DNA of 64,000 nucleotides from Escherichia phage PhaxI: the sequence record JN673056; one strand, given 5' to 3'. Both the position numbers and the translations under genes were made by a program. The notes under the pieces were generated by a model. That model saw only the letters and a program-made list of their open reading frames with translations, was not told the origin of the DNA and did no database searches. This document shows, one piece after another, positions 22,882 to 60,997 of the stretch (the stretch's first letter is position 1; each line of letters starts with the position of its first letter).

Positions 22882-23838
22882 TTAATCGAAGCGAGAGAGG
22901 TGTGTCACAGTGTTTTGAACAGGTGCGCACGCGTATACACGAACATTAGCACCCCACACCCCACACAGCTTAGGCATATTGGTATCGTTAATGATATACG
23001 CTGGCACATAACTTTCAATTTGGCCGTTAACATCTACGGGTCGAGAAGATTTTTCAACTGCCATAGAAAGAATTATTTCCAACGTTTTTGGAGATACCAA
23101 ACGCCACGCCGTCAAATCATCAACAAATACCTGACCTTCTTCAATTGCCATGCTGGCAACGATGTCATTGATCTGACGGGAAGGGGTATTCGTCAGCATA
23201 TCAGAGAAATCAGGCTCTTTGAACACAGCCATGTTTTTCAGGAATTTTCCTTTCGGATATTCTTTGCCATTCCACATCACAGTCTCATTCACTTTGATGC
23301 ATGCCTGAGGGAATTCACCTTCAACGCGTAACTGGCCAACTGGGAAACCGCGTGAATAATAATATTCCAGTGCCGGACCGACTTCATCTTCTGAGCGAAT
23401 AAATTTGCTCATGTTGGAGGCATAAACACGCTGCAAGCACTCATCGCCGTTGAAACCAGCAATGTGTGCCACGCCGTCATTGACTGTTGTGATGTCGCCC
23501 TGAGCGTCCAAAATCTGGCGCATAATGTCTTTGATGTCGACAACAGCAGGTTCTTTCAGGACTCGCGGAGATGCAGTGAACTCAATTTTCACCTCGTGGT
23601 CGAAATAAGCCGCTTCCAGTAATTCGCGGGTCTCTTCCAGAACCAGTTTGGCCTGATTGCGAATTTTACCGAAGTCAGGGGCTGTAATATCTCCAGCCGC
23701 ATTACCAAAAGCCAAATTCAGTCTCACGTTTTTATTAAATGTAGTTGTCATAATATAGCGACTCCAGTTATTCAATTTTTGCCCGACTTGGGCGAATGGT
23801 GTATTTTGGAACCAGTTTCCACTCTGAAACTTGGTCAT
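22882..23838 (-). CDS. hypothetical protein (318 aa)
   Basis: Long ORF; no motif recognised. Confidence 0.45.
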   Translation of the reverse strand: MTKFQSGNWFQNTPFAQVGQKLNNWSRYIMTTTFNKNVRLNLAFGNAAGDITAPDFGKIRNQAKLVLEETRELLEAAYFDHEVKIEFTASPRVLKEPAVVDIKDIMRQILDAQGDITTVNDGVAHIAGFNGDECLQRVYASNMSKFIRSEDEVGPALEYYYSRGFPVGQLRVEGEFPQACIKVNETVMWNGKEYPKGKFLKNMAVFKEPDFSDMLTNTPSRQINDIVASMAIEEGQVFVDDLTAWRLVSPKTLEIILSMAVEKSSRPVDVNGQIESYVPAYIINDTNMPKLCGVWGANVRVYACAPVQNTVTHLSRFD

Positions 23839-40978: not shown

Positions 40979-41437
40979 CTAATTAGTCGTCAATCTTTTA
41001 ATCTTCATGGAAGAAAAATCAAATCCGTGGTCAACATTGCTTAAAACGGGTTCTATTTCACACAATTCCCAACGGGGATCTATGAGAGAAACAAGACCAA
41101 TGTGTTCACCTGTGGATGTCAATTTTGCTGCAGTTTTACCCAGCATATGACTTCCATCATTACCGCCTTTATTCATGTTGTAACCCATCTCATAAGAATT
41201 ATATTGAGCGATGAGTTGCTTCTCTAATTCCCATTTATGGACTTCATCGGTCTGAGCAATTACAACGAAAGTAAATCCAGATGTTCCATACTTACGCATG
41301 GCATCATACAATTCACTTTGGACTCCATGATGAAAAGCATTCGCAAAATGCTGATCATATCTTCGTTGTGGGTTATTGGTTACACCGATGTAGACCTTTC
41401 CATTAGTTATCGTTTCAATTTTGTATGCGTATATCAT
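40979..41437 (-). CDS. GIY-YIG homing endonuclease
   Basis: MIYAYKIETITNGKVYIGVTNNPQRRYDQHF is a canonical GIY-YIG motif with the conserved Arg; inserted between gp19 and gp18. Confidence 0.7.
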   Translation of the reverse strand: MIYAYKIETITNGKVYIGVTNNPQRRYDQHFANAFHHGVQSELYDAMRKYGTSGFTFVVIAQTDEVHKWELEKQLIAQYNSYEMGYNMNKGGNDGSHMLGKTAAKLTSTGEHIGLVSLIDPRWELCEIEPVLSNVDHGFDFSSMKIKRLTTN

Positions 41438-41504
41438 TTCAAATTCACCTCTATTTTATTTAGTGTTGAACAATTTCGGGGTATTATGCTCTTGGAGGTG
41501 TTAT

Positions 41505-42293
41505 ATGATCGGTCATATCTACATGTTAACCGTCGGTAAAAAGAAGTATATCGGACAAACTAGAAACGGCGTTGAGTATCGAGTAAATGAACATTTGGGT
41601 GAAGCAAGAAGAGGGAATAAAACTATCCTCTACAACTATATCCGAAAGTATGGAATTACCAGCCAAGAAATATTGCTAGAATGCCATGTCGATGACCTAA
41701 ACTCTAACGAAATTGAACTCATAAAATTGCATAAGACTCATATCTCTGAAGGTGGGCTGAATATCAGCCGTGGCGGTCAGATAGACATATCTGGTATGGC
41801 CGCAGCATATGATATAGAAAGCAGGGAATTCATCGGAATGAAACCAGTTAATGATGCTGGTTGGAATGTTTTGTTTGTGGCAAAACAATACGGTTTAGTA
41901 CATAAAGAAGAAAGTAAAACAAAAATGTCCCAATCCCAAGCGGTCGTGTGGACAGAAGAAAAGAAAGAATTGCAATCCCGGCGAATTACAAAGGCATACG
42001 AGAATCCAAAATGTAAAGAAAATCTTCGTATCGCTATGAACAAAGTGCGTATGAATCCTGAATTTCAAGAGAAAATAAATCGATCTCTCGGGAGATGGTT
42101 TACACTTCTTTCACCAGCTGGTGAAGAATATGAAATCAAGAATCTAAACAAATTTTGTCAAGAACAATGTTTGTGTATAGAATCTTTCAACATGGCATTA
42201 GCTGGAAGGATGCAGAATCCCATCCCTAAACCTTACAGGAAATCTTCATTGAAGAGAACAAATACCACAGGATGGCATATCAGTAGGAAATAA
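41505..42293 (+). CDS. GIY-YIG homing endonuclease (Seg-like), plus-strand
   Basis: ATG 41505 with SD GGAGGTG; HIYMLTVGKKKYIGQTRNGVEYRVNEH canonical GIY-YIG; divergent from adjacent minus-strand GIY-YIG gene. Confidence 0.7.
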   Translation: MIGHIYMLTVGKKKYIGQTRNGVEYRVNEHLGEARRGNKTILYNYIRKYGITSQEILLECHVDDLNSNEIELIKLHKTHISEGGLNISRGGQIDISGMAAAYDIESREFIGMKPVNDAGWNVLFVAKQYGLVHKEESKTKMSQSQAVVWTEEKKELQSRRITKAYENPKCKENLRIAMNKVRMNPEFQEKINRSLGRWFTLLSPAGEEYEIKNLNKFCQEQCLCIESFNMALAGRMQNPIPKPYRKSSLKRTNTTGWHISRK

Positions 42294-44216: not shown

Positions 44217-44258
44217 AATATCATTCCTTCTCGGTAGAGTTTCGCTCAATTTGAAAGA

Positions 44259-44265
44259 TATTTAG
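44259..44265 (-). promoter_or_regulatory. late-promoter-like motif CTAAATA between terminase stop and gp18 start
   Basis: Minus-strand CACTAAATATC about 40 nt upstream of gp18 ATG. Confidence 0.4.
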
Positions 44266-44268
44266 TGA

Positions 44269-46479
44269 TCAATTCTTAAACCACTCATCCATGGTCATCC
44301 CTGACATTTCGTTGAAAACTTGAATACCCCCGAAACCAGGCAAATGCTCAGTTTCGGATGGGGTGTCTCCAACGACTAAACCGCCAAATGGGAATACCTG
44401 CTGGGATTCAGTTGAAGACATTCGGTTTCTCATGTCCTGAGAAATACTTGTAGATGTCAAGTCACTGAACCATTCTTGTTTTACCGCCCATGAATATAAG
44501 ACCAACGGCATGACACAGTCATCGTGACAACCGTCATCGGCTTCATACCGAGCGCCTTTGAACACAAATGTACTGAGTTCATCTATCGTGTCCTGGTCTT
44601 CTATCACCAACATTTCTTTCTCAATGAGCGCTTTCAGGTTAGCACAACCGATAGATCGGACTTTTCTGTTGGTATTGATACCAGGTTCCGGTTTACGTCC
44701 ACCAATCCGTTTCCCCGTCCCTTTGTTATCTGTTGATGTGAATATGATTTCTGGATATTCTATCTCTTGATAAAGAATTGTAATAACCTGACCGCCGACG
44801 TCGTTGTTTGTTTCAACAAGGACAGGACATTCCCCGTATTCGGTGCACATATCAGCTATCGTGTATGCATACATCATAGGAGGTATCGTATTATTCCTGT
44901 ACTTGGCTGCTATGACATGCGGATATTCAGTTATATCCAGAATTGTTAAGACGGAATAATCTCCTTCCACCCCCTTCCCAGTGTCCGCAATCCCAAAGTA
45001 GAGACGTTGTGGGTCGTATTCCTTATAAATCTTGGTGAATTCATTAGGTTCCCGATACAACTTGGACGTCATTTTATCTAAGCATTTGGCCGGAATCAAT
45101 GAACCCACGGAACCACGGAACTTAATGCCAAATTCTTGATCGAAACGAGCATCCCCCAGACGGGCACGTTGTTTGGTTTCCCAATCTGGATCTTTGGTAT
45201 ATGCCGGAACCTTATACCATGGGACTTCAGTTAGGTGGAAGTCGTTGTATGGTGGATGGCGTGGATCTGCTTTGGTGACAATATCATAGAACAACCCTCG
45301 CTGGCCTTTCGGAGTACTTGTCAAAATACAGCGTGATGTATCGGCAGATGCAATGGCTGGGAAAGTTGATTCCCAAAATTCAAAGTCGTTTTCGATAAAC
45401 GCGACTTCGTCAACATACAGGAGCGATCGACGACCACGGATGGAGTTCCGAAGACTCGTGGCATAAGCGTATATCTTAGAACCATTCTCAAACTCTATCA
45501 GGGTAGAACCAAACTTCTCACAACCCTGCTGAAGGAAGAATGGAAGGTCTTGGTATGCCTTTCTGATACGGTCAAGAATTTCTATCGCTTGTTTCTCTTT
45601 GTTTGCCAGTACTGCGATTTCCTTATCAGAATGGAACATCGCGTACCAAAGAAGAAACGCCGCCACCACGGTCGTGTTATGACTGAGAAAGCCATTCGTG
45701 TAATAACGTTGATCACTAGATTTGACCTGCAGATCGTACATATGGTGATATTCACCAGTCTGCCAAATCTCACGGATTTCTTCTGGACCTTCGGTCGTCA
45801 TGATGTATGACCCAGCATTCAGGTCTTTGGCAAATATCTCCTTCATGTCCGGAGTGAAGAACATATGTTCATCGGCCACGTTAATTCGCCTTCCGGTAAC
45901 GGTGACAATAACGAATTCCGCATATTTCTTCGTCTTATGCGCTGCGATAACCGGAACCCAGCCACTATCGGATTGTACAAAGTAACGTTTGCCGAAGCGG
46001 CTGTCCACGAACTTGTCATGGTTGCCAATGGTATTCAGCGGCACAGCGTGGTTGACGTCCTCGAAGCGGCTGTGAAGCTCCCCTATAGTCAGGAGCAACT
46101 CCTCTTGGCTGAGAGTATCGTAAACTGTGACAAGCGTGTCGCCTTTTACACATTTTCCGGACTGACGAGCCTGGACGACCGCATTAAATCGATAGTCCTG
46201 AAAGTCGTGGAACAACTGCTTCTGATAATCATGCATATCGAAAAGGATAAAGCCCTTATCGATCGTGGTTATCTTGTAATAGTTGGCGGCGAAGTAGTGT
46301 GCATCCATAGAACATTCAACGAATTCGTCTTCTTGTTCATCTGTCAGCATTAACTCGACTCGAGGAGCACGCACAGAAAGTTTGCGCATGAACGTTTGGT
46401 CCATACGCAATTTTACATCGTCTATTTTGAACCCCGTTTTAATTGGGGCATATTCTATATCACGCTTCTGATACGCCAT
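44269..46479 (-). CDS. terminase large subunit (T4 gp17-like) interrupted by a mini-intein
   Basis: C-terminal nuclease/ATPase blocks (LLYVDEVAFIENDFEFW, ILTSTPKGQRGLFYDI) match remembered T4 gp17; Walker A ARQSGK is separated from its TTVVAAFL continuation by a 159-aa insert. Confidence 0.9.
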   Translation of the reverse strand: MAYQKRDIEYAPIKTGFKIDDVKLRMDQTFMRKLSVRAPRVELMLTDEQEDEFVECSMDAHYFAANYYKITTIDKGFILFDMHDYQKQLFHDFQDYRFNAVVQARQSGKCVKGDTLVTVYDTLSQEELLLTIGELHSRFEDVNHAVPLNTIGNHDKFVDSRFGKRYFVQSDSGWVPVIAAHKTKKYAEFVIVTVTGRRINVADEHMFFTPDMKEIFAKDLNAGSYIMTTEGPEEIREIWQTGEYHHMYDLQVKSSDQRYYTNGFLSHNTTVVAAFLLWYAMFHSDKEIAVLANKEKQAIEILDRIRKAYQDLPFFLQQGCEKFGSTLIEFENGSKIYAYATSLRNSIRGRRSLLYVDEVAFIENDFEFWESTFPAIASADTSRCILTSTPKGQRGLFYDIVTKADPRHPPYNDFHLTEVPWYKVPAYTKDPDWETKQRARLGDARFDQEFGIKFRGSVGSLIPAKCLDKMTSKLYREPNEFTKIYKEYDPQRLYFGIADTGKGVEGDYSVLTILDITEYPHVIAAKYRNNTIPPMMYAYTIADMCTEYGECPVLVETNNDVGGQVITILYQEIEYPEIIFTSTDNKGTGKRIGGRKPEPGINTNRKVRSIGCANLKALIEKEMLVIEDQDTIDELSTFVFKGARYEADDGCHDDCVMPLVLYSWAVKQEWFSDLTSTSISQDMRNRMSSTESQQVFPFGGLVVGDTPSETEHLPGFGGIQVFNEMSGMTMDEWFKN
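45676..46152 (-). mobile_element. mini-intein (Hint domain only, 159 aa) inserted in the terminase Walker A P-loop
   Basis: Insert begins Cys (CVKGDTLV, block A), contains VYDLQV...NGFLSHN ending in His-Asn, and is followed by Thr (+1 nucleophile) that completes QSGK-T of the P-loop; no homing endonuclease domain. Confidence 0.75.
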
Positions 46480-48543: not shown

Positions 48544-49254
48544 ATGATCGTCCTGACAGAAGGAATTGCTTCTAAAAGAATCAAATCATATGCTTCTTCT
48601 AGAGGTGGAATATTTCACGGATTTGTCGGTGGTAAATTTGTCACCAACCAAACTAAGTGCATTTTGTCTTGCGAATTTGGTCATGAATGGAACTCAGCAA
48701 CTTATGCGAATTTGATAAATAAAGGAAGTTGGTGTCCTTCGTGTCGTGGAAACAAGAAGATCTCAAATGAAGAAGCTAAAATCAGGATATCGGAGTACGC
48801 CGTAAGCAACGGTGGTAAATTCATAAATTTCATTGGCGGGAAGTACAAAGACAACGTGACAATTTGTGTCATGGAATGTTCTGAAACGCACAGGTGGGAA
48901 TCCAGGTACGGTAATTTAGTCAACAGCCGAAGTTGGTGTCCGTATTGCGCAGAATCGGGTTACAATTATTCTAAGGAAGGTTTCTTATATATTCTAGTCA
49001 ACGACGAAGGTTGTATGAAAGTGGGAATAACCAACTCGCCTAAGAAACGTATAAATTGTTTGAGAAGCACCACCCCGTTTTACTTCAACGTTCTAGAAAT
49101 ATTTAATTCAACTGACGGATTATTTGTTTCCAGGTTGGAAAGAATTGCCCATAGAATGTGTAAGAGCGCGGGGTATAAGGATTTTGACGGTGCTACCGAA
49201 TGGTTTGTATACGATGGATCAGTCGTAGATTTTATCAGAAATATTTTGAAGTAG
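48544..49254 (+). CDS. T5orf172/GIY-YIG-superfamily nuclease domain protein with two N-terminal zinc-ribbon repeats, plus-strand
   Basis: C-terminal GFLYILVNDEGCMKVGITNSPKKR...EWF fits the T5orf172 pattern; N-terminus has two about 70-aa repeats each with C..C..H.W...SWCP.C; SD AAGGTG. Confidence 0.55.
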   Translation: MIVLTEGIASKRIKSYASSRGGIFHGFVGGKFVTNQTKCILSCEFGHEWNSATYANLINKGSWCPSCRGNKKISNEEAKIRISEYAVSNGGKFINFIGGKYKDNVTICVMECSETHRWESRYGNLVNSRSWCPYCAESGYNYSKEGFLYILVNDEGCMKVGITNSPKKRINCLRSTTPFYFNVLEIFNSTDGLFVSRLERIAHRMCKSAGYKDFDGATEWFVYDGSVVDFIRNILK

Positions 49255-50923: not shown

Positions 50924-53900
50924 TCATGCCAGAGCAATAAGACGGAAGTCTTTGAATGAAGGAGGAGCAACTCGGTTCCCCCTTACAAGTGCTCTGACTT
51001 TCAGTCCAACGAACGGATTGTTGCTTGCCACAGTCTTATCATACTCATATTCAAAGAATGTAGAACCGTCGTTAACCAGAGGCGAAGTTGGAGTAACGTC
51101 TTCCCAATCCACGCTATCCATCTCTTGACCTGCTCGGAGCAGTTTTACCTGCACCTTCATGGAGGATTGAGAAGGCAGCATCGCCCCGAAGAACAACTTC
51201 ACAGTAGAACACGGATTATCAAATCCGATGTCCTTTGTCACGTATTTGAAGACATCTTCAAATGGATCCACACCGTATGAGTTGAAGATTACGCTCAGGT
51301 CATCGCCATCAATCATTGGAGCAGTGTACACGTTGTTTTCACTACGCGTCATGGTGGCTCGGATTTGGAAATCCCCGACCTGACGATAGATACCTTCAGT
51401 CGGCAATGCCACGTCAGTGTCAGTTTCAAACTCAGCCCAATCAGACATAGAATTTGAAGTGGCATCGCGATAACGGTATTCCAATTTCAGAATTGAACCT
51501 TCCAGAGCCGAATTGGTAACGCTGGCATAGAACATATCAACCAGATAATTGCCCAAGAAAGAAGCATTATCTCCACCGATTTGTCCATTGCTGTCTGCTG
51601 CCGTACCGACGTCAATCTTGAATGAAGTATAGCTCGCATCTGTCACAGTAAACGTTTTGTTAAGTTGTTCAGGAGTAAAGCCACAACCGCCTGTCAATTC
51701 AGAAAGAGTGACATTGTTCCCAGCAACCAAACCATGACCAGGTGCAAACACAGTCACAACAGAAGACCCGCTTACGCAGTTCAGAGTATTCAATCCCAAC
51801 GGACGTTGTTTTGGCCCGAGCTTCGGATCAAATGTTACAACGTTCTGCCCCGCAGCGAAGTTACAACGATATATGCGGAATTTCATATCAGCCATTTGGT
51901 TTGGAGACCATGTAGAACCGTTTGAAGAAGTGAAGAACACCCCTGTATACGGTTGTTTGGCGATATATTCGTTGGACAGAAGGTTTTTCTTGCCCATTTC
52001 CGCGATATACGCGTTGTAATCCTGAGTATTCGCCAACAAAACGATAGCAAACTCAGTCGATGCTTGCAGATACACCGGATAATCAAAGGTGAACTTCGTA
52101 CCGCCGGAAGAGTCTGTAGAGATCGTCACTTCAGACGGGTTCAAAGTTTTACGAGTAATGACTGTATGAGAAGGTAAGCCATTCTCCATCTCGCGAATTT
52201 CCAGAGTGATCGGAACATCACGTGACTTGGTAGAGAAGAATACTTCCACGCCTTCAATATACTCGCCGCCATTCTTAGTCGCTACCATAAACGATTGGGC
52301 AATCGGATCACGCCATTGGTCGACCACAACTTCAGAAGTGCTGGTTTCGGTGCGAGTACTAGCAGTGTAACCCAGGACACGAGTGTTGACAAAGGTCTTT
52401 TGAATACCTTGTTTCTTACCGAAAGATTTATGAACAATTTCTGCATTGGTCAGTGTATCATCCGCAGATTTACTGTCAACAGGGCTATCCGTTAAGCGGA
52501 ACACGTTGTCGCCTGTGTTGAACTTGATTGTATCGTTCTGTGGAACGCGGAATATACCTTTAACAGCACCATTGGCATCAGTGGTGATTGGGTCACCGAA
52601 ATTACCACCATTCGGTTTGCAATACAGATTGACGTCACGACCAGAGAAGAACGCATACATACGAGTGAAAGGTCGCAGCCCAGATGCGTCGAAAGAAATA
52701 TCGATCTCGCGCATGTATGGGATAACTTGCGTCTCCACAATCTGTTCACCAGTCATGGTCGTGGTTGTTTTGTCCGTGTATGTATATGCGGTGACATCAC
52801 GGGCAGAAACAGTCGTGCGGTAAGGATATCCCCCCCACACACCACCAGCGCCATGCGGTTCCCAAACACGATCAGAAACAGAAACAGTATGCCATGTTCC
52901 GTACACTGAACCTTCTTGTACAGTACCACGGGTGTTGATCGTTTCATTGATAATACGCGGCGCAACATAATAGTTTTCGAACCAGTAGTCTGTGGTCGGG
53001 TTAATCTTCAAGAAACCTTCCCAATTGAATACTGCATACGGGTTAACGTTGATCGTCGTCGTCGCATATTCTTGGTTCACTGAGATTTCAGGCGTGTAAT
53101 TACAAACCACCATCCCATCCATCACTTTGTTCCAGCCAACAGGAGTCATGTCAACAACGTTCTGTTGTACAAACGGGCGTAGACGTCCGTTTTCGGTATC
53201 GATAGAACCCATCCAATCTTCAGACAAGTCATCAATCAACCGGAAGTCTTTGAACGGATCAGCTGCAATACCATTTTTGAAACGGGGATTGCCCGTGATG
53301 GGGTCGAACACTTGCTGTGTCATCGCTGAAGATTCCAACTGTGACAGAGAGGTATAGTATTCAACATTGGAAATACGGGTTTCCAGTTTACCGATATCGC
53401 GCATTGTATACCGACGATTATCAATAGTTCGAATTTGGATATCATCAATATTCGGCGTATACGGCGGGATCAACAGTTCATACAAACGCATGGCGTTCGC
53501 TGGGATTGCTGGAGAAGCCAGGTTGTTAGAACTGATGCCACGAGCCACTCCGAACACGCCGTTGTCTGCCAGATAAATCGCGTCGATGCGCGGCAGATAA
53601 TATTCTGTGTCCAGAATAACTGCAGTGTTTGGACGAACCATATCTGTGTCAGAAGTTCCGTTGGTGATTTTCGGACGGAAATCCAAACTATCTGCCAGGC
53701 CGTACACCGCGCCTGATGTAGAAGATGTATAATTCGGGATATCTTTATAATCCATCGAAGTATACGAATCAGCAGAGAAGAAATCACCGGAACTGTGGGC
53801 GAAGTATTGATACACCACTGTATACGTCCCTGAGATTGCTCCAGCGCTGGATAACAAGTTAGACTTGTAATACCCTGCATCACGCTGTCCGCCGTCTAGG

Positions 53901-55762
53901 ACGAAGCTGGAGGTCACGTCTGCGCCAGTATCGTTTTTTACCGACACCAATTTCCAACCATCGTGATTCGCCAAAGGACGGCTAGTCTGCGAGGTGAACG
54001 TCACTGTTTCAGTTGTTTCAGTGATGGTCTTCGTTTTGATTGTGGCCGTGGTACGAATCATCAGCGCCAGCAAATTGATTGACTGGTTAGCATTACCACT
54101 GCCTAGAGAAATCTGCAGCGCCGAACCGACCGGAGAACCAGTCAAAGACAAAGAACCAGAGATATCGAACTGCGCTTCAGAACCATCAGATTTCGCTGCA
54201 GAGTACAACGAAAATTCTGGGGAAAAACTATATCCCAATGGAGCAGAAATAGAACCCGCGCCGCTGTTGTCCAACGTCACTTTATACGTTCTGAGAACAG
54301 TGTAGTTGATATCCACGGAGCCAGTTGGTGCTAAAGTCTTGACACCGAATACCGGAAGAGAGAAGATCAGATCTATCATAGAACTCTGGTTAAACTGATT
54401 GGATTCCAGTTCAGCAGAGAACATGGTGATACCGCTTTCTTCGTAAGACACTTTGGTGATAGTGGACGCGTCCCCAGTCACAACTAAATCACGCATGTAC
54501 AGGCGGAATTCAGTTGAATTGCGTTCAGCGGATATACACAACGCCGTGGCTTGAGTAGCGCCGGATGCATTCAATAACTTGTATCGCACAGTGCGAGATA
54601 TTACTGGAACACCTTTGGAGTTCTTGGTGACCAGATAATTCCCTGTAGCAACTGCGACAGGCGTGTTATTCAGGACATCGGTATCCCGTGCCTTGTCAAC
54701 GATCACCAACTCTTCCCCGACGTTTTCGATACGACGACCGCGAACATAGGAAATACCTGGTTTCATTACAGACACGAATTTACTTTCGTCGCCGCCATCA
54801 GCAGCATTGAATACACCACCATTGTTATTGACTTTCAGGTGTTCGCGGATGTCGATCTGGTGCGTTGAAACGTTGTAATCGCCGTTGGTTTCATACGTCC
54901 GTTGGGCCAACGTGTCTTCCAGAATATTATAGGTGGACTGAGTCACCATAGACTGGATTTTACCATCACGAACTTTGGCCAGTTCAACAAAGTCTTCAAC
55001 CACAGCATCATAATCAAATCGAGATAAGACCAGATCTATTCGAAGACGATGAGCGCCTGGGGCTTTGGAGTTAATCGTTCCCTGAGCATTTGAATAAAGG
55101 GATTCGTCTTCAGATTCAGTCACGATGGTTTCAGTGACTTTAAATCCGACGCGGTGGGAAGACGTGTTCGAAGTTTTATCAACGATAAGAGTTGCGTCAT
55201 CAACGTCTAGGAACATCCCACGAATGAAGTAAACGCCTTTCGTCATACGAGCAACGATAGAACCAGTCACAGCAGCCGCGATACCATAACCAATACGAAT
55301 GAAATTATCATTCACGTCGTAAGTCTGGAAATACAGATTATCGTTAACATGGAATCCGTCAGCATTACCCGCTTCAGTCATCTCAAGGATAGCCAGCATT
55401 GTATCAGGAGCAGACAGATCACGTTCAAGAGACAACACACGCGCTTTGGCGTTATTGTCTTTCCCCAAAACGTAGAGTTCAGAAATACCTTCCAGATCAG
55501 TGAATTCAGTACCACCAGCCAAAGTGAATTTCAAAGAGACTGCGGCATTGGTAATCGTCAGACCACCAGGGATAACCATAGAACCATCTTTGAACAAATG
55601 GTTGCCCAGTTTTTCAATTTGATCCTGAAGAATAGTCTGCATCTGGTTCAGTTCGCGAGTCTGAACCTTGATAGGCATCGGACGAAAAAGAATCCGTGAA
55701 AAACGTTTCCCAGGATTCCAGTCATCCCAATACGGGCGACGGTTTAAATTTGTAGATTGCAT
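50924..55762 (-). CDS. very large virion structural protein (1612 aa; putative baseplate/tail fibre component)
   Basis: Single uninterrupted ORF, ATG 55760-55762; location between tailspike cluster and neck genes; Thr/Ser/Gly/Asn-rich as in fibrous proteins; function inferred from context only. Confidence 0.5.
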   Translation of the reverse strand: MQSTNLNRRPYWDDWNPGKRFSRILFRPMPIKVQTRELNQMQTILQDQIEKLGNHLFKDGSMVIPGGLTITNAAVSLKFTLAGGTEFTDLEGISELYVLGKDNNAKARVLSLERDLSAPDTMLAILEMTEAGNADGFHVNDNLYFQTYDVNDNFIRIGYGIAAAVTGSIVARMTKGVYFIRGMFLDVDDATLIVDKTSNTSSHRVGFKVTETIVTESEDESLYSNAQGTINSKAPGAHRLRIDLVLSRFDYDAVVEDFVELAKVRDGKIQSMVTQSTYNILEDTLAQRTYETNGDYNVSTHQIDIREHLKVNNNGGVFNAADGGDESKFVSVMKPGISYVRGRRIENVGEELVIVDKARDTDVLNNTPVAVATGNYLVTKNSKGVPVISRTVRYKLLNASGATQATALCISAERNSTEFRLYMRDLVVTGDASTITKVSYEESGITMFSAELESNQFNQSSMIDLIFSLPVFGVKTLAPTGSVDINYTVLRTYKVTLDNSGAGSISAPLGYSFSPEFSLYSAAKSDGSEAQFDISGSLSLTGSPVGSALQISLGSGNANQSINLLALMIRTTATIKTKTITETTETVTFTSQTSRPLANHDGWKLVSVKNDTGADVTSSFVLDGGQRDAGYYKSNLLSSAGAISGTYTVVYQYFAHSSGDFFSADSYTSMDYKDIPNYTSSTSGAVYGLADSLDFRPKITNGTSDTDMVRPNTAVILDTEYYLPRIDAIYLADNGVFGVARGISSNNLASPAIPANAMRLYELLIPPYTPNIDDIQIRTIDNRRYTMRDIGKLETRISNVEYYTSLSQLESSAMTQQVFDPITGNPRFKNGIAADPFKDFRLIDDLSEDWMGSIDTENGRLRPFVQQNVVDMTPVGWNKVMDGMVVCNYTPEISVNQEYATTTINVNPYAVFNWEGFLKINPTTDYWFENYYVAPRIINETINTRGTVQEGSVYGTWHTVSVSDRVWEPHGAGGVWGGYPYRTTVSARDVTAYTYTDKTTTTMTGEQIVETQVIPYMREIDISFDASGLRPFTRMYAFFSGRDVNLYCKPNGGNFGDPITTDANGAVKGIFRVPQNDTIKFNTGDNVFRLTDSPVDSKSADDTLTNAEIVHKSFGKKQGIQKTFVNTRVLGYTASTRTETSTSEVVVDQWRDPIAQSFMVATKNGGEYIEGVEVFFSTKSRDVPITLEIREMENGLPSHTVITRKTLNPSEVTISTDSSGGTKFTFDYPVYLQASTEFAIVLLANTQDYNAYIAEMGKKNLLSNEYIAKQPYTGVFFTSSNGSTWSPNQMADMKFRIYRCNFAAGQNVVTFDPKLGPKQRPLGLNTLNCVSGSSVVTVFAPGHGLVAGNNVTLSELTGGCGFTPEQLNKTFTVTDASYTSFKIDVGTAADSNGQIGGDNASFLGNYLVDMFYASVTNSALEGSILKLEYRYRDATSNSMSDWAEFETDTDVALPTEGIYRQVGDFQIRATMTRSENNVYTAPMIDGDDLSVIFNSYGVDPFEDVFKYVTKDIGFDNPCSTVKLFFGAMLPSQSSMKVQVKLLRAGQEMDSVDWEDVTPTSPLVNDGSTFFEYEYDKTVASNNPFVGLKVRALVRGNRVAPPSFKDFRLIALA

Positions 55763-55830: not shown

Positions 55831-55856
55831 AAACCCCGCCTAAGCGGGGGTTTTGT
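55831..55856. terminator. bidirectional terminator (CCCCGC-CTAA-GCGGGGG) with T-runs on both strands
   Basis: AAAACCCCGCCTAAGCGGGGGTTTTGTT. Confidence 0.7.
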
Positions 55857-55919: not shown

Positions 55920-56543
55920 TTAATCAGTATACGCCATCAAGAACATAATAAGCTCATCATAGCGTACTCCGTACCTTACTCCTGCTGGTTTAACTATTAC
56001 AACTTCTTCTAACGTTTCTGGATTAATGATTATTTCAGAAGACGCTTCCCATTCGTCCTTGCACCAGAATGCGTAATCCTCTGGTTTAAGTCCGTGCTTT
56101 GTCAGGATAGAACCAACAGTTTGCGCACCAACGCCGAAGTGGACTCGTGCAGACTCTTCTCCCTTAATTTCTATAGCGTCAGTAAACTTATAGCGAATAA
56201 TATTATTGCGAATTTCATTAGCCGCTTCCCTTTCCGCACTCTCGTTTGTTGCTGGGGTTTTTACCTTCAGTGTTTCATCGGAGGTGCTTATTGTTCCCGT
56301 TGCAGCATAGACAACAGACCATCTATGTGATGTATATCCTAATACGGTCGTATTGTCTGTATCAGGCATAAATCCATTGTATCCACCAATCTTAAGGTCG
56401 CCATTTGGGTTTCCGGATGACGTTTTACCATCATAACTTCTCAGAGTTACTCCTTTCGTTCCGGCAGTGGTATCTACCAAGATACCAGCGTTGGTAGAAC
56501 CTAGAAGCTGAATTCCACTATTATCATTACGCAAATCCTGCAC
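55920..56543 (-). CDS. hypothetical protein (207 aa), possible C-terminal fragment or accessory of tailspike
   Basis: GTG start in track; frame is open about 50 codons further upstream; lies directly downstream of a short tailspike ORF. Confidence 0.35.
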   Translation of the reverse strand: MQDLRNDNSGIQLLGSTNAGILVDTTAGTKGVTLRSYDGKTSSGNPNGDLKIGGYNGFMPDTDNTTVLGYTSHRWSVVYAATGTISTSDETLKVKTPATNESAEREAANEIRNNIIRYKFTDAIEIKGEESARVHFGVGAQTVGSILTKHGLKPEDYAFWCKDEWEASSEIIINPETLEEVVIVKPAGVRYGVRYDELIMFLMAYTD

Positions 56544-56738
56544 AGGTGCTTCAAGTACAGTTGCTGTAAATTTCCATTTTGTATCGGAATAAAATTCAGC
56601 AGGTGAAGTATCATCACTTTGTATGATTACCGCTTGTTTGCCAGATTCTCTTCTACGACACCAGCAATATTTTTCTGGGTTGGATCCCAGTTACTAGAGA
56701 CAAGCACCCCATCAAATTCTACTAATGATTCAAAAGGT

Positions 56739-58163
56739 TTACCTACTGCACGCGTTGGGGTTTGGGACAAAAATACCCCAGTTCCAATCAAAGAAATTGT
56801 TATACGTACCAACATTATCATCTATCTGATACCCACGAGTGCATAATTCGCCAAAATAACCATAGAATCGCAAGTTACCAGCAACTTGGGTGTCACTGCT
56901 CACCCTTTTAACAACACGTACCGCACAAGGTACATCAGCAGGCCAAGTGCCTTGTGTGATGTTCTCTGAATGTCCACCGAATACGCGAAGGCTATCTGTA
57001 CTTTCAATCCAGAAGCTACAGTTACCGGTTGCATGGTGCGGGTCGTATATATGAATGCGGGTATTATTATTATCGCCACTCTCTGATCGTTCGAAGAAGA
57101 AACCACAGTCAACACGTTCGAAGTTAGGATTCATAATGGAATGGTAATAAGCACCACTATTGCTACCACCTACAGTTGGGCCAGGTTTGAACTTGATACC
57201 AATCTTAACACCACGTGCTCGTGGGTTCTCCATTACACAGAACTGCTGAGATACACGCACTGTTGTTTGAGTTTCATTTTCTGGTGCAATAGCATAGGCG
57301 ATAACGTCAGTGTGGTTACTTGGGTTAATTACTGTTGGATTTATAACGTGGCAGAAATCATGACTCATGCGAATACAGGTAATGTTATTGGCACCTGCCA
57401 CAATCACTGTCCCAGTGAAATCCAGATAGCGAGTTGACATTACATCCTGGGTATATGAACCGTCAAATTTCATTACGAGGCTATTCGTAATGAGATACTT
57501 AGCCCCAGGTCTGCCAACCAACTTACCGAAAGGTATCCCCTCTAGCCACACTAATGCTTCCAACATTGAGGCAGTGTCATTAGTAACCCCATCTCCAATC
57601 GCACCAAACTCTTCAAATGATTTTATTGTAGTAACCCGATGGGCAATTTGGTCAATTGTTGGACCATACTTTGTTAGGTCAGTTATAAGAGACGTAGCCC
57701 CAACACTAACCCAAGCACCCACGCCAATCCCGCCAGATTCTTCTGGTGTTGAACTGGCAGGTACACTTTTAGGCAATGCCCCATCCCAACGGTATCTACC
57801 ATCTGTAAAAGTAACCAATTCATTCTTGGTATTAACAGTTACACCAGTAGAGAATGAACCAGGTAGAGTTACATACTCTTCACGAGTAACAGCTAATGCA
57901 CCAAGGTCTACATTACCTCCAGAATGAACCAATACACCAGCAGTATTAAGACTGACGGCAGTAGTACCAGCACCAAGGTCAGTAGGTAAGGAATAAGCTC
58001 TCTGTGTTACTTTATCATAGATGACTTTATAGCCACTTAATACAGCACCGATAGAGAAGTAAACAACCTCAGATTGCTTAACTCCAAAGTGACGAGCTAC
58101 TGCTTGCTTGTTGGTTAAGATTCCAGTTGAACCTTTTCCACCTTGTGAGAACAGTTCGTTCAT
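56739..58163 (-). CDS. tailspike protein, short (474 aa) with conserved N-terminal module and start of beta-helix
   Basis: N-terminal 140 aa near-identical to residues 275-412 of tailspike at 61088-64000; GAIGDGVTNDTASMLEAL is typical of pectate-lyase-like beta-helix entry. Confidence 0.6.
   Translation of the reverse strand: MNELFSQGGKGSTGILTNKQAVARHFGVKQSEVVYFSIGAVLSGYKVIYDKVTQRAYSLPTDLGAGTTAVSLNTAGVLVHSGGNVDLGALAVTREEYVTLPGSFSTGVTVNTKNELVTFTDGRYRWDGALPKSVPASSTPEESGGIGVGAWVSVGATSLITDLTKYGPTIDQIAHRVTTIKSFEEFGAIGDGVTNDTASMLEALVWLEGIPFGKLVGRPGAKYLITNSLVMKFDGSYTQDVMSTRYLDFTGTVIVAGANNITCIRMSHDFCHVINPTVINPSNHTDVIAYAIAPENETQTTVRVSQQFCVMENPRARGVKIGIKFKPGPTVGGSNSGAYYHSIMNPNFERVDCGFFFERSESGDNNNTRIHIYDPHHATGNCSFWIESTDSLRVFGGHSENITQGTWPADVPCAVRVVKRVSSDTQVAGNLRFYGYFGELCTRGYQIDDNVGTYNNFFDWNWGIFVPNPNACSR
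57690..58100 (-). repeat. tailspike N-terminal module, DNA copy A (paralogous to 62750-63160)
   Basis: Encodes SEVVYFSIGAVLSGYKVIYDKVTQRAY...YRWDGALPKSV..GGIGVGAWVSVG; roughly 80 percent nucleotide identity by eye to copy B. Confidence 0.7.
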
Positions 58164-58213
58164 ACATACCTCTTTGTTTTTCTAGTGATATCCCTCCGAA
58201 GAGGGGTATATTT

Positions 58214-60997
58214 TTAAATAGAAGAATCCAATATACGGTAACTAATTAACTTAGTAGGGTCTACAGGATTAATCAGGTTGTAGTACCGTGAAGATACATA
58301 ATCATTCTCAGAAGAGAACATACCAACATACACTTTAGCACCTACACCAGAACAGGCATCCCCACCAGCATTGCTATCCGAGAAGAATGTTAATGAGGAA
58401 GTTAATCCGAATATAGAATTAAATGGTACGGCTAAATAAGCGCCTCGGAATGACCGTCTGATTCTCTTACCCGTCTGAATATTAAGAATACTCCACCAGA
58501 AATATCCAGGTTTAGCACCAATAGCTATATGATATGGTACACCACTTTGTAGTTTAAGGTCGTTAGGTAAATCCCCAGATAAAATTTGGGTTGTACCATC
58601 GCCCCCCAATAGCAAAGCAATTGTTTGTTTTCCAGAAGCGTCTATAACTAATTGAAGATGAAGACTGTTGGATGTATCACTAAACCCTGAACCAATGGCC
58701 ATGAAGTTAAATACTTCAGCTCCAGATATGGTAGGTACTACAACAGCAGCCATGGTAATACCTTCTGGACCTGCTGTTCTTGAATACAGTAATTTATCTT
58801 TGTTGGCTTGTGATAGTCTCAGACCATTTACTTGCCCTACAGAAGATGGGACACTTACATAAACAGGTGTAGTGCTAACACCATCAAATGTAGGGGTCTC
58901 GTTCATGGTTTGCAAACCAGTCTTGGAATAATTAACCAATCCGTTAATGCTCAGGTCGGAATTGGTGGGGTTGATAATATTGTTATCACCAATAAAGTTA
59001 ATGCCCATATAACCAGTCTCAACCACACCATTAATGGTGACACTACAATCATTAGACAGGAACTGAAAATTGCCTGCACTAGAGTTAGCACCTGAACCAC
59101 TATTCGCGGCATAATTGAGTCCTACGAATCCGTTGATAACTGCATCGCTTTTGTTAAATACGATGTTGTAGAAAGTGTTGTTAGCATTGATGCCGTTACG
59201 ATTGGTGTTCAATCCGTTCATGGAAATTGAATATGAATCGCTAATCTCAATGCCATTCCCGCCACAATCTTGTACCTCAATACCATTAATAACCATATTC
59301 TGGCTGTTATTAATAGTAATGCCTGGGAACTGTCCTACTGTACCATAAGGTTGCCAGTTAGCCCAAATGAATTTACCGCCCAATAAATACGAACCATTAC
59401 CACAACCATCAAGAACCAGACATTGTTTACCGCAGGTATTAACCTGGATATTTGTCCAAGTCCAATCAGTAGTAGCACAACGGACACCCACCTGATTGAT
59501 GTGGTTGACTAAAAGAGAATCTGTAGTAACACTAAAGTTACCACTATCAATATTTAACCCATATTCATCAAAACCTGCTATATGGACCTTAGAAATACAC
59601 AAGTCGCGTCTTGGGTCTGCGGTAGTGTGGAACGGATAATCGGCTGAGAGACCTGAAGGAGTTTCTACATAGATACCTGTTGTGCCCGCAGTAAATGGCA
59701 TGCCTTGTTGTGCACCTGTGCCATATACCCCAAAGGCGTCTAATACAATAAGGGAGCATGTATCTTTTATGGTAATACAATTCCCAGTAGCAGAAGGCAA
59801 CTGATGCAACCTTGAGTAATGTAATCCAGACCCATAAATAGACGACGTATTATATTTTAACTGGATATTGCTAACGTAATGTGCATCAGTTAATTGTGTG
59901 GCCTTACCACTATCCACACAAGATTGTACTGGAATAGTATCATCATTAGAACCACCCAAAGCACCAAACATGAATGGGTTAACTCTATCAGCATTAACAC
60001 GTAACCATGCCGCGCCGCCAACAGTTTTGATCACAGTACCGTTATTATCAGTCTTTCCTGTACCATCAATTAACGCACGGAATACCCCTCCACCAAGAAG
60101 AGTACCCGCAGTGTGTTGCTTAAGAATAATGCGTTGTCCATCCATAGTGGGTTCAGTATTCCTGAGATCAGCAACAGAATGGCATTCTCCAATATACTTG
60201 GCACCATCATTGCGCCCCAGAGTGTTTATCACATTAATAAATGAATCCTCTAAAGGCAACAAATCAACCTGCACATCACCTGGGTTGTAATTCAATTTCC
60301 CAGCAGATACAGAAGAAATGACAGAACCATCAGGAATGGTTGGTAAACCATAACTGGTTTGCGTCGCTATATCATAAACAACTTTCTTCCCATCCAACAA
60401 AGATATGGTGTCCGTACTAACGATGACTTCAGAGTCTTTTACATTAGCAGAACGGGCGATTTCTTGAATACTTCGGTCAAACGCCGGACTGATATTCGGT
60501 TGTTTAACAGACATTTCAGCGACTACCCAAACGCCTGCAGTCAGTGCAGTTTGCAAAGACACTTTCCCTGTCGTGCTGTTATAGGAATATTCAATTTCGG
60601 GTGTTTTGTACTCGCCACCGATATAAAGAGATTGGACACCATAGGATGTGAAATCAGGAGTGAACTCGGTTTCACCTCCCACGGCCTGAAATTTGTATAT
60701 GCGGATACCTTTGGCTGTATCTTCTGGCGAAAGAATTTTATCGAATAAGCAATACACAACATCGCCTTTGGACAATGCGCGCCCGAGATTCAACGTATTT
60801 CCTTCGATTTCAAAGTTGTCTAACGGAACTTGCATACCACCGTTGATTGTGACTACGCCAGTGACAGGATAGAACGGCAAGGAAAGGAAAGTTTCTCCAC
60901 CAACATTTGATTTATACGTGAAAGGAATCTGGTGGGGAGCTGTGATTACGCCGCCGAATAATTCTTCTACATTTCTGGTCATTTGAAAATACCCCAT
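58214..60997 (-). CDS. tailspike protein (927 aa) with beta-helix and C-terminal lectin-like domain
   Basis: Contains weaker copy of shared module (ARSANVKDSEVIVSTD..VVYDIATQTSYGLP), Gly/Asn-rich repetitive beta-helix region, C-terminal domain LHLQLVIDASGKQTIALLLGGDG. Confidence 0.6.
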   Translation of the reverse strand: MGYFQMTRNVEELFGGVITAPHQIPFTYKSNVGGETFLSLPFYPVTGVVTINGGMQVPLDNFEIEGNTLNLGRALSKGDVVYCLFDKILSPEDTAKGIRIYKFQAVGGETEFTPDFTSYGVQSLYIGGEYKTPEIEYSYNSTTGKVSLQTALTAGVWVVAEMSVKQPNISPAFDRSIQEIARSANVKDSEVIVSTDTISLLDGKKVVYDIATQTSYGLPTIPDGSVISSVSAGKLNYNPGDVQVDLLPLEDSFINVINTLGRNDGAKYIGECHSVADLRNTEPTMDGQRIILKQHTAGTLLGGGVFRALIDGTGKTDNNGTVIKTVGGAAWLRVNADRVNPFMFGALGGSNDDTIPVQSCVDSGKATQLTDAHYVSNIQLKYNTSSIYGSGLHYSRLHQLPSATGNCITIKDTCSLIVLDAFGVYGTGAQQGMPFTAGTTGIYVETPSGLSADYPFHTTADPRRDLCISKVHIAGFDEYGLNIDSGNFSVTTDSLLVNHINQVGVRCATTDWTWTNIQVNTCGKQCLVLDGCGNGSYLLGGKFIWANWQPYGTVGQFPGITINNSQNMVINGIEVQDCGGNGIEISDSYSISMNGLNTNRNGINANNTFYNIVFNKSDAVINGFVGLNYAANSGSGANSSAGNFQFLSNDCSVTINGVVETGYMGINFIGDNNIINPTNSDLSINGLVNYSKTGLQTMNETPTFDGVSTTPVYVSVPSSVGQVNGLRLSQANKDKLLYSRTAGPEGITMAAVVVPTISGAEVFNFMAIGSGFSDTSNSLHLQLVIDASGKQTIALLLGGDGTTQILSGDLPNDLKLQSGVPYHIAIGAKPGYFWWSILNIQTGKRIRRSFRGAYLAVPFNSIFGLTSSLTFFSDSNAGGDACSGVGAKVYVGMFSSENDYVSSRYYNLINPVDPTKLISYRILDSSI

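What the first reader, a model, noticed from the sequence alone, without database searches (positions are those of the whole stretch)
55920..58163. Possibly truncated or fragmented tailspike gene
The 474-aa ORF carries the attachment module and the entry of a beta-helix but stops early. A small out-of-frame ORF (56627-56821) and a 207-aa ORF (55920-56543, GTG start, frame open about 50 codons upstream) follow within about 200 bp. The three pieces together would approach the size of a complete tailspike, so this may be a pseudogenised tailspike, sequencing frameshifts, or a genuine short spike plus separate accessory protein.
Basis: inference. Interest (0 to 1): 0.5.

Follow-up and report, generated by a model that had tools for sequence, protein, structure and literature searches.

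The report
Tailspike gene split by two indels
The three ORFs are pieces of one ordinary phage tailspike gene (TSP1 of a Kuttervirus, identical to phage PhaxI), broken by one extra and one missing base 122 nt apart, and these are most likely errors in the deposited sequence rather than biology.

Summary
ORFs of 474, 64 and 207 aa lie at the stated coordinates on the minus strand. Together they span 2244 nt, exactly the length of the intact 747-aa TSP1 gene of Salmonella phages SS3, SS9 and SeKF_64 (96.3% nt identity). Against those genes the window has one extra base (GGGG for GGG, 56777-56780) and one missing base (T for TT, at 56660/56661). The 474- and 207-aa ORFs share a frame. The 64-aa ORF carries the true frame of the 122-nt segment between them.

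The 474-aa ORF is identical to the annotated 'tail protein' of Escherichia phage PhaxI. It holds the head domain and nearly the whole beta-helix. The missing part is the stalk and a Peptidase_S74 intramolecular chaperone with an invariant Ser628/Lys633.

All homologues are single ORFs. dN/dS downstream of the break is 0.08. The downstream pieces have no ribosome-binding site.

The window also carries many other private, homopolymer-type indel clusters in otherwise identical sequence. One destroys a helicase motif that is invariant across phage families. I therefore favour sequence error (about 0.7) over a recent real pseudogene (about 0.23). This is an ordinary, low-interest finding.

The parts
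55920..58163 (-). Whole TSP1 (tailspike protein 1) gene. It is 2244 nt, or 747 codons plus stop once the two indels are corrected. It lies between the TSP2-like gene (58214-60997) and vriC (50924-55762).
   Evidence: Colinear with the 2244-nt single CDS of phages SS9 and SeKF_64 at 96.3% nt identity, with two 1-nt gaps. The position in the tsp cluster matches CBA120 orf210.
58169..58175 (-). Shine-Dalgarno-like AAAGAGG, 5 nt upstream of the ATG at 58163.
   Evidence: Read directly from the sequence. No comparable motif precedes the 64-aa or 207-aa ORF starts.
57699..58163 (-). N-terminal head (attachment) domain, residues 1-155, including Tail_spike_N (PF18668, residues 91-155).
   Evidence: Pfam E = 1e-24. 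PDB sequence hits to CBA120 TSP1 (4oj5, E = 1e-82 over residues 1-211) and G7C gp63.1 (4qnl). 119 of 155 residues are identical to CBA120 TSP1.
56781..57632 (-). Right-handed beta-helix receptor-binding and putative depolymerase domain, about residues 178-461.
   Evidence: AlphaFold2 model of the 747-aa homologue P0001: a regular strand ladder over residues 180-461, with pLDDT mostly 75-96 up to about residue 430. Foldseek matches to CBA120 TSPs, Sf6, HK620 and phiAB6 tailspikes, and polygalacturonases.
56777..56780 (-). Indel 1: a GGGG run where SS9, a Logan contig (L009) and phage 38 have GGG, flanked by two private substitutions (AAC for AGT). The reading frame shifts here, after residue 461.
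   Evidence: Alignments.
56739..56741 (-). Premature stop (TAA) that ends the 474-aa ORF after 13 out-of-frame residues (GIFVPNPNACSR). It is the first of five stops in this frame within the shifted segment.
56661..56776 (-). The segment between the two indels. Its true frame is that of the 64-aa ORF (56627-56821) and encodes residues 462-501, VFLSQTPTRAVGKPFESLVEFDGVLVSSNWDPTQKNIAG.
   Evidence: This frame matches SS9, P0004, P0001 and P0015 residue for residue.
56660..56661 (-). Indel 2: one base is missing (TGG-TGT where homologues have TGGTTGT or TGGCTGC). It returns the reading frame to that of the 474-aa ORF.
56283..56660 (-). C-terminal neck and stalk, residues 502-627, endosialidase-stalk-like.
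   Evidence: Pfam End_tail_spike C-terminal part, weak (E = 4e-4, below cut-off). PDB sequence hit to 9vvr over residues 553-741. The model has medium confidence here.
55923..56282 (-). Intramolecular chaperone domain (Peptidase_S74), residues 628-747. The Ser628 codon is at 56280-56282 and the Lys633 codon at 56265-56267.
   Evidence: Pfam PF13884 scores 22.5 bits against a cut-off of 22 on the 207-aa ORF. PDB sequence hits to T5 L-shaped tail fibre 4uw8 (2e-11), endoNF chaperone 3gw6 (2e-10) and phi29 3gud (3e-8). The fold matches 3gud with TM 0.76. T627, S628, D629 and K633 are invariant in 31 homologues.
55834..55849 (-). Intrinsic-terminator-like hairpin (CCCCGCTTAGGCGGGG followed by TTTTTATTT), 70 nt after the gene's stop codon.
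   Evidence: No terminator-like or promoter-like site on the minus strand lies inside the 56540-56830 junction.

Best explanation
Window 55920-58163 (minus strand) is one gene. It is tailspike protein 1 (TSP1) of a Kuttervirus (Ackermannviridae), and its first ORF is identical to the annotated 474-aa 'tail protein' of Escherichia phage PhaxI.

The intact protein is 747 aa and has four parts:
- Residues 1-155: a head domain. By analogy with CBA120, it docks TSP1 onto the XD3 domain of TSP4 in the branched spike complex.
- Residues about 178-461: a right-handed beta-helix that binds, and probably cleaves, a surface polysaccharide of unknown serotype.
- Residues about 502-627: a stalk.
- Residues 628-747: a Peptidase_S74 intramolecular chaperone. 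It drives trimer folding and then cuts itself off at the Ser628/Lys633 dyad.

In the window the gene is broken by one extra base in a G run (56777-56780) and one missing base of a TT pair (56660/56661). The 122-nt segment between them is out of frame and contains five stops.

I judge these two indels most likely to be errors of the deposited sequence, so the real phage probably makes the full 747-aa spike.

What is shown: the gene identity, the domain content, the positions of the two indels, and their absence from all homologues. What is inferred: that the indels are artefacts, and the docking and cleavage mechanism, which comes from homology.
For: One gene:
- The span has the same 2244-nt length as the single TSP1 CDS of SS3, SS9 and SeKF_64, with 96.3% nt identity and only two 1-nt gaps.
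- The repaired translation is 727/747 identical to SS9.
- SS9, a Logan contig (L009) and phage 38 all carry the uninterrupted state at both sites.
- 31 homologues, at 33-90% identity to the lead homologue P0001, are single ORFs spanning the junction.
- Domains.
- Only the 474-aa ORF has an SD sequence, and the only terminator follows 55920.
- The source is PhaxI or an identical relative: the ORF equals P0012 exactly.

No decay: dN/dS against SS9 is 0.10 overall, 0.01 in the helix and 0.08 downstream of the break, in the orthologue's frame.

The record is error-prone:
- In the first 36 kb, against four other Kutterviruses, the window has 30 private indels, 25 of them single bases. CBA120 has none.
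- 31 of 35 isolated 1-nt indels against CBA120 change a homopolymer length, the same type as the two TSP1 indels.
- Clusters at 1124-1137, 6855-6887, 10084-10148, 23099-23111, 45430-45457 and 59381-59393 sit in flanks with only 0-7 substitutions per 594 nt.
- None of 115 records (site 10084) or 74 records (site 59381) shares the window's indels.
- The 6855-6887 cluster replaces helicase motif HMSAT[IV]CG, which is invariant from Kuttervirus to Dickeya, Vibrio, Pseudomonas and Rhizobium phages, with ISTFICQHD and a 5-aa deletion. That is hard to reconcile with a viable phage.
- Indel 1 also sits in a small patch of private differences, like the other clusters.
Against: - No reads or second sequence of this phage were available, so the artefact call is indirect.
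- The other private indel clusters inside genes all restore the reading frame. Purely random errors would not do that. The pattern would also fit real compensated frameshifts filtered by selection, or selective re-checking of visibly broken genes by the depositors, which is speculation.
- PhaxI-specific substitutions are mostly synonymous (358 synonymous, 106 nonsynonymous). Most of its divergence is therefore real, and the 30-versus-0 indel contrast with CBA120 is partly a branch-length effect.
- TSP1 is dispensable on an O157 host, which is recognised by TSP2 (PMC8432352), so a real inactivation would cost nothing in the laboratory.
- Low dN/dS does not exclude a very recent inactivation.
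Confidence: 0.7

Rival explanations
1. Real, recent pseudogene. The phage genuinely carries both indels. TSP1 is truncated after the beta-helix and lacks its stalk and chaperone, so it probably cannot form a stable trimer. The phage has lost the host specificity conferred by TSP1 and relies on TSP2 (O157) and the other spikes.
For: - The indels are in the deposited record and were annotated as a 474-aa protein.
- TSP1 is not needed on O157:H7, because TSP2-1 is the O157 spike and PhaxI carries it (PMC8432352).
- Homopolymer slippage is also the commonest natural frameshift mechanism.
- The frame-restoring pattern of the other clusters could reflect selection acting on real mutations.
Against: - There is no relaxation of selection downstream (dN/dS 0.08).
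- There are two indels and no other lesion.
- The second indel restores the frame although five stops lie in between, so selection cannot explain the pairing.
- The same record contains indel clusters that destroy an invariant helicase motif and alter TerL next to its LLYVDE motif in a viable phage. Such clusters in this record are therefore not trustworthy.
Confidence: 0.23
2. Native arrangement. A genuine 474-aa short spike and a separately translated 207-aa protein acting in trans, for example as a stand-alone chaperone, are the normal products.
For: Trans-acting tail-fibre chaperones exist in other phages (general knowledge). The 207-aa ORF has a possible GTG start.
Against: - There is no SD sequence before the GTG or before the 64-aa ATG.
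- The 207-aa frame is open and homologous to full-length spikes for 49 codons upstream of the GTG.
- The 64-aa ORF encodes conserved spike residues in a third piece.
- Every homologue is a single ORF.
- The last 13 residues of the 474-aa ORF are out-of-frame read-through of conserved sequence.
- The S74 domain's cleavage serine lies inside the 207-aa ORF, and the 87 residues before it belong to the mature spike.
Confidence: 0.04
3. Programmed recoding. The ribosome shifts +1 at the G run and -1 at GGT-G to make the full-length spike from the sequence as written.
For: The two shifts are of opposite sign and would restore a full-length product.
Against: - There is no slippery heptamer or stall codon at either site (sequence read).
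- Orthologues encode the same protein without any shift, so there is no conserved recoding signal.
- Two successive programmed shifts in one gene are, to my knowledge, unprecedented (general knowledge).
Confidence: 0.02

Closest known systems
TSP1 ('tail protein') of Salmonella phages SS9, SS3 and SeKF_64 (YP_009883287.1, WWQ71446.1), 747 aa
   Same: Same locus between vriC and TSP2, same 2244-nt length, 96.3% nt identity and 97% aa identity after repair, and the same domain order.
   Different: Those genes are uninterrupted. The window has +1 and -1 indels 122 nt apart.
CBA120 TSP1 (orf210, PDB 4OJ5)
   Same: Same position in the tsp cluster. The N-terminal head domain is homologous (119/155 identical; E = 1e-82) and presumably docks on TSP4 XD3 in the same way (PMC11721090).
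   Different: The receptor-binding part is unrelated in sequence beyond about residue 211. No similarity to the CBA120 TSP1 chain (4oj5) was found beyond about residue 211, so it gave no match to the S74 chaperone region. A different receptor specificity is expected.
C-terminal intramolecular chaperone domains (Peptidase_S74): K1F endosialidase (3GW6), phage T5 L-shaped tail fibre pb1 (4UW8), phi29 gp12 (3GUD)
   Same: Sequence and fold similarity over residues about 566-742. The Ser-x4-Lys dyad is invariant.
   Different: The domain is attached to a different catalytic beta-helix. In the window as written it is separated from its spike by the frame break.
Salmonella phage 38 tsp cluster (NC_029042)
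   Same: It carries a homologous TSP module (81-83% identity) and is likewise annotated in fragments.
   Different: There the whole cluster is chopped into about ten small CDSs. The break positions are not the same, and phage 38 has the intact state at both of the window's indel sites.

Membership tests
Ackermannviridae tailspike TSP1 | Gene lies in the tsp cluster next to vriC | tested here: met
   vriC (DUF4815, 1612 aa) lies at 50924-55762 and the TSP2-like gene at 58214-60997. The region is colinear with CBA120 orf209-211.
Ackermannviridae tailspike TSP1 | N-terminal head and tandem domain homologous to TSP1/gp66 (PF18668) | tested here: met
   PF18668 scores 86.7 bits against a cut-off of 25. 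4oj5 E = 1e-82.
Ackermannviridae tailspike TSP1 | Central parallel beta-helix receptor-binding domain | tested here: met
   AF2 model of the homologue P0001 (79% identical to the repaired window protein), residues 180-461, pLDDT mostly 75-96 up to about residue 430. Foldseek matches to tailspike beta-helices. The model is a monomer with mean pLDDT 67, so details are uncertain.
Ackermannviridae tailspike TSP1 | Single uninterrupted ORF | tested here: not met
   The gene is split into 474-, 64- and 207-aa ORFs by two 1-nt indels. The orthologues meet this feature.
Ackermannviridae tailspike TSP1 | Trimeric virion component with polysaccharide-degrading activity on a defined receptor | not testable with these tools
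   This needs proteomics or enzymology. The receptor serotype is unknown.
Peptidase_S74 intramolecular chaperone | Sequence or profile match to the family | tested here: met
   PF13884 scores 22.5 bits (cut-off 22) on the 207-aa ORF but 19.9 bits on the repaired full protein, so it is borderline. Support comes from PDB hits 4uw8 (2e-11), 3gw6 (2e-10) and 3gud (3e-8) and from fold TM 0.76 to 3gud.
Peptidase_S74 intramolecular chaperone | Conserved Ser...Lys catalytic dyad (S-D-x-x-x-K) | tested here: met
   The motif TSDETLK is present. T627, S628, D629 and K633 are invariant in 31 homologues.
Peptidase_S74 intramolecular chaperone | Translated as the C-terminus of the spike it folds (intramolecular) | tested here: not met
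   As written, the domain is separated from the helix by five stops. The feature is met after removing the two indels and is met in all homologues.
Peptidase_S74 intramolecular chaperone | Autoproteolytic release after trimer assembly | not testable with these tools
   This needs protein expression.
Programmed ribosomal frameshift site | Slippery sequence or stimulator conserved among relatives | tested here: not met
   There is no X XXY YYZ heptamer or stall codon at either site. Relatives encode the protein in one frame.
Decaying pseudogene | Relaxed selection (dN/dS approaching 1) and accumulating lesions downstream of the first break | tested here: not met
   dN/dS is 0.08 for residues 502-747, and there are no lesions other than the two indels. 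This does not exclude a very recent inactivation.

The most novel reading that the evidence does not exclude
The private indel clusters are real. On this reading, the PhaxI lineage experienced an unusual burst of single-base frameshift mutations, and frame-restoring second hits were selected in essential genes. Examples are the clusters in helicase, TerL, TSP2, MazG and gp46. The TSP1 break is then the one unselected casualty, recording loss of one host specificity in a phage described as O157-specific. That would be a natural Crick-Brenner-style series of compensated frameshifts in a phage genome.
Probability: 0.08. Interest if true: 0.5.

Novelty: already known. Interest (0 to 1): 0.12.

Why it matters
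The finding matters mainly for annotation and for predicting host range.

- The PhaxI-type record under-reports its spike repertoire. Its TSP1 should be read as a 747-aa spike of the SS3/SS9 subtype with an intramolecular chaperone, not as a 474-aa 'tail protein'.
- Host-range prediction schemes based on TSP subtypes (for example PMC8432352) would misclassify or drop this spike.
- The window contains many other private indel patches. Protein sequences taken from this record (helicase, TerL, TSP2, MazG, gp46) should therefore be used with caution.
- If the break is real, it would be a small example of host-range narrowing by loss of one arm of the branched spike complex.

Tried and rejected
- **Exact look-ups.** Searching for contigs that encode the 474-aa and 207-aa ORFs and P0012 found nothing on record. 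I therefore had no independent assembly of the same phage.
- **Exact-pattern scans.** I scanned viral contigs for the window's version of indel site 1 and of the gp46 cluster. I also scanned viral and metagenome contigs for a 22-mer lying between the two TSP1 indels. All found nothing, so there is neither support nor contradiction from public contigs.
- **The original PhaxI paper** (doi 10.1099/mic.0.063776-0) is not held. The sequencing platform and the virion mass-spectrometry data could not be checked. My recollection that the abstract reports MS of virions and O157 specificity is from memory only.
- **Supplement of PMC8432352.** The one supplementary file held as text has no PhaxI or SS9 entries. 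The main text names PhaxI only for the TSP2-1 and TSP4-2 subtypes.
- **Sister-branch asymmetry** (30 private indels in the window against 0 in CBA120) looked decisive at first. It is weakened because PhaxI also has about 12 times more private substitutions, mostly synonymous. I replaced it with the local test of indel clusters in near-identical flanks and the motif-conservation test.
- **Frame restoration.** The fact that the TSP1 pair restores the frame despite intervening stops is only weak evidence, since two random indels have opposite signs about half the time.
- **Programmed frameshifting** was considered and rejected: there are no slippery sites and no conservation.
- **A stand-alone chaperone gene** was considered and rejected: no RBS, the frame is open upstream, and homologues are fused.
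- A first tblastn call failed through a wrong frame and was redone.
Full report
**1. The observation**

- 56739-58163 (474 aa, ATG)
- 56627-56821 (64 aa, ATG)
- 55920-56543 (207 aa, GTG)

The 474-aa and 207-aa ORFs are in the same frame, because 58163-56543 is a multiple of three. The 64-aa ORF is in another frame. Between the 474-aa stop and the GTG lie 195 nt. In the shared frame this stretch reads *TF*IISRI*WGACL**, followed by 49 open codons.

**2. What the locus is**

The window is a Kuttervirus (Ackermannviridae) genome segment, colinear with phage CBA120 at 94-98% identity. The locus sits between vriC (50924-55762, DUF4815) and a TSP2-like gene (58214-60997). That is the slot of tailspike protein 1, CBA120 orf210.

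The 474-aa ORF is identical, residue for residue, to 'tail protein [Escherichia phage PhaxI]' (P0012). The identity includes its 13 out-of-frame C-terminal residues. The window is therefore PhaxI or an identical sequence. That record itself does not appear among the hits from the searchable phage collection.

**3. One gene and two indels**

Megablast finds the whole region at 96.3% identity in Salmonella phages SS3, SS9 and SeKF_64. There it is annotated as a single 2244-nt CDS of 747 aa. The window span 55920-58163 is also exactly 2244 nt.

A global alignment shows 81 substitutions and only two gaps:
- One extra base at gene position about 1381-1387. The window has TGGGGT where SS9 has TGGGT (window 56777-56780).
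- One missing base after gene position 1503. The window has TGG-TGT where SS9 has TGGTTGT (window 56660/56661).

The same intact state is seen in two further independent sequences: a Logan-assembled contig encoding P0004 (L009) and phage 38.

Between the two indels the true frame is that of the 64-aa ORF. It reads VFLSQTPTRAVGKPFESLVEFDGVLVSSNWDPTQKNIAG, which matches SS9 and P0004. More distantly it matches P0001 and P0015. Removing one G and adding one T gives a 747-aa protein that is 727/747 identical to SS9.

A database search with this protein returned 469 relatives. The 31 I aligned (33-90% identical to the lead homologue P0001; 571-868 aa) are all single ORFs across the junction.

**4. 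Domain content**

- **Residues 1-155: the TSP1/gp66 head domain.** PF18668 scores 86.7 bits. The PDB hit to CBA120 TSP1 (4oj5) has E = 1e-82, and 119 of 155 residues are identical.
- **Residues about 180-461: a regular beta-strand ladder.** This comes from an AlphaFold2 model of the equal-length homologue P0001 (79% identical to the repaired window protein). pLDDT is mostly 75-96 up to about residue 430. Foldseek matches phage tailspike and pectate-lyase-type beta-helices.
- **Residues 462-510** are poorly modelled.
- **Residues about 510-627** form a medium-confidence stalk with a weak endosialidase-stalk signal.
- **Residues 628-747: an intramolecular chaperone of the Peptidase_S74 type.** Pfam is borderline, at 22.5 bits against a cut-off of 22. 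It is backed by PDB sequence hits to T5 pb1 (4uw8), endoNF (3gw6) and phi29 gp12 (3gud), by a fold TM of 0.76 to 3gud, and by invariance of T627-S628-D629 and K633 across 31 homologues.

The 474-aa ORF therefore holds the attachment domain and nearly the whole beta-helix, not only its entry. What it lacks is the stalk and the chaperone.

From established knowledge of S74 chaperones (endoNF, T5 pb1, phi29 gp12), this domain is needed in cis for trimer folding and is then auto-cleaved. A product truncated at residue 461 would be expected to misfold. This step is inferred, not shown.

From the CBA120 work summarised in PMC11721090, the head domain of TSP1 docks on XD3 of TSP4 in the branched spike complex.

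**5. The pieces are not separate genes**

Only the 474-aa ORF has a Shine-Dalgarno sequence: AAAGAGG, 5 nt upstream of its ATG. The 64-aa and 207-aa starts have none. The only minus-strand terminator follows the final stop, at 55834-55849. The 207-aa frame is homologous to full-length spikes for 49 codons upstream of its nominal start. The 'native short spike plus accessory protein' alternative is therefore rejected.

Programmed frameshifting is also rejected. There is no slippery motif at either site, and the relatives need no shift.

**6. Artefact or real pseudogene?**

*No sign of decay.* dN/dS between the repaired gene and SS9 is 0.10 overall, 0.01 in the helix and 0.08 for residues 502-747, read in the orthologue's frame. 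The break is therefore either very recent or not real.

*The rest of the window shows the record is unreliable at the single-base level.*
- Against CBA120 there are many close groups of 1-nt indels inside genes.
- Against four genomes (CBA120, FEC14, SS9, aagejoakim), 30 indels in the first 36 kb are private to the window, and 25 of them are single bases. CBA120 has none.
- 31 of 35 isolated 1-nt indels against CBA120 change the length of a homopolymer, like the two in TSP1.
- Several clusters lie in sequence otherwise almost identical to CBA120. There are four indels at 10084-10148 with no substitution in 594 flanking nt. Others lie at 1124-1137, 6855-6887, 23099-23111, 45430-45457 and 59381-59393, with 1-7 substitutions.
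- Among 115 Kuttervirus records matching the 10084 region and 74 matching the TSP2 region, none carries the window's indels. The best identity is exactly what the gaps alone produce.

*The protein consequences are implausible for a viable phage*:
- In the helicase, DYHVHMSATICGID becomes ISTFICQHD, with five residues lost.
- In TerL, ATS-SDSIRGRSVSLLYVDE becomes ATSLRNSIRGRR-SLLYVDE.
- In TSP2, GNGR-IIGG becomes GNGSYLLGG.

The helicase motif HMSAT[IV]CG is invariant from Kuttervirus through Dickeya, Vibrio, Pseudomonas and Rhizobium phages, down to 35% identity. It is lost only in the window.

Indel 1 of TSP1 also sits in a small patch of private differences (five within 20 nt, after 80 nt of near-perfect identity), like the other clusters.

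**7. Caveats**

- The other clusters inside genes all restore the frame. Purely random errors would not do that. Length-preserving base-calling errors in poor patches, or selective re-checking of visibly broken genes, could explain it, but that is speculation.
- PhaxI's private substitutions are mostly synonymous (358 against 106). Its divergence is largely real, and the raw 30-versus-0 contrast is partly a branch-length effect.
- TSP1 is dispensable on an O157 host, which is served by the TSP2-1 subtype that PhaxI carries (PMC8432352). A real inactivation would therefore be tolerated.
- No reads, no second assembly and no access to the original paper were available.

I put sequence error at about 0.7, a recent real pseudogene at about 0.23, and the remaining alternatives at a few per cent together.

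**8. Comparison with what is known, and novelty**

The gene is a member of the known SS3/SS9-type TSP1 subtype of Kuttervirus. It combines the standard TSP1 head with a beta-helix module that also occurs behind other N-terminal domains:
- P22-type head-binding domains in E. coli records;
- Citrobacter freundii records;
- the siphovirus vB_EcoS_P1338.

Such module exchange is well documented for these phages (PMC8432352). Frameshift-split tailspike annotations are common in older phage records; phage 38 is another case.

Nothing here lies outside known kinds. The value of the result is a corrected annotation and a warning about the record. Interest is low.

Noticed in passing
window 1124-1137, 6855-6887, 10084-10148, 17816-17822, 23099-23111, 45430-45457, 59381-59393: These are clusters of 2-4 private single-base (mostly homopolymer) indels inside genes: gp46 endonuclease, DNA helicase, orf130, orf146, MazG, TerL and TSP2. 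Each restores the reading frame within 5-65 nt. Except for 17816-17822, which sits in a more divergent stretch, they lie in sequence otherwise nearly identical to CBA120. For the two clusters checked against the phage collection (10084-10148 and 59381-59393), none of the 115 and 74 matching Kuttervirus records shares the window's indels; the clusters checked against four other Kuttervirus genomes are private to the window.
   Followed up: yes
window 6855-6887 (minus-strand helicase gene): A 14-nt deletion plus a 1-nt deletion removes five codons and rewrites the HMSAT[IV]CG motif. That motif is invariant in helicase homologues from Kuttervirus to Rhizobium phages. The change is implausible for a viable phage.
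   Followed up: yes
window 14264-14664: This is a dense patch against CBA120. A run of single-base deletions, each shortening a doublet (AA, TT, GG), covers the start of the orf141 homologue and the adjacent intergenic region. It is followed by a strongly divergent acyl-carrier-protein gene region (29 indel columns and 75 substitutions in 400 nt).
   Followed up: partly
window 41421-42293 (+): An insertion of about 0.85 kb relative to CBA120, between the GIY-YIG endonuclease gene and the tail sheath gene. It carries a 290-aa plus-strand ORF with a weak GIY-YIG match (18 bits, below cut-off). It is probably a second homing endonuclease.
   Followed up: partly
window 48544-49254 (+): An insertion of about 0.7 kb relative to CBA120, between the head-closure and neck genes. 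It carries a 236-aa plus-strand ORF with CapR, MUG113 and T5orf172 domains, which looks like a mobile nuclease.
   Followed up: partly
window 58214-60997 (-): The TSP2-like ORF is listed as 927 aa against 921 aa in CBA120. One extra residue comes from three +1 insertions at 59381-59393. The rest probably comes from the ORF finder choosing an ATG five codons upstream of the likely start (MTRNVEELF).
   Followed up: partly
L003 (Salmonella phage 38, NC_029042 27981-34838): The whole tsp cluster of phage 38 is annotated as about ten small 'tail protein' CDSs, which suggests many frameshifts in that record too. At the window's two indel sites, phage 38 has the intact state.
   Followed up: partly
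proteins P0004, P0007, P0008, P0015, P0019-P0022; H47 (vB_EcoS_P1338): The same beta-helix, stalk and chaperone module (60-85% identity) occurs behind different N-terminal anchors. These include P22-type head-binding domains in E. coli records, Citrobacter freundii chromosomal records, and a 41-kb siphovirus. This is a clear case of receptor-binding module exchange, and it hints that the receptor may be an E. coli or Citrobacter polysaccharide.
   Followed up: no
L004:46592-48802 (CBA120 TerL; window homologue about 44240-46450): The 736-aa large terminase gives a sub-threshold Intein_splicing match (29.6 bits against a cut-off of 35.8) at residues 125-228, ahead of the Terminase_6N domain.
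   Followed up: no
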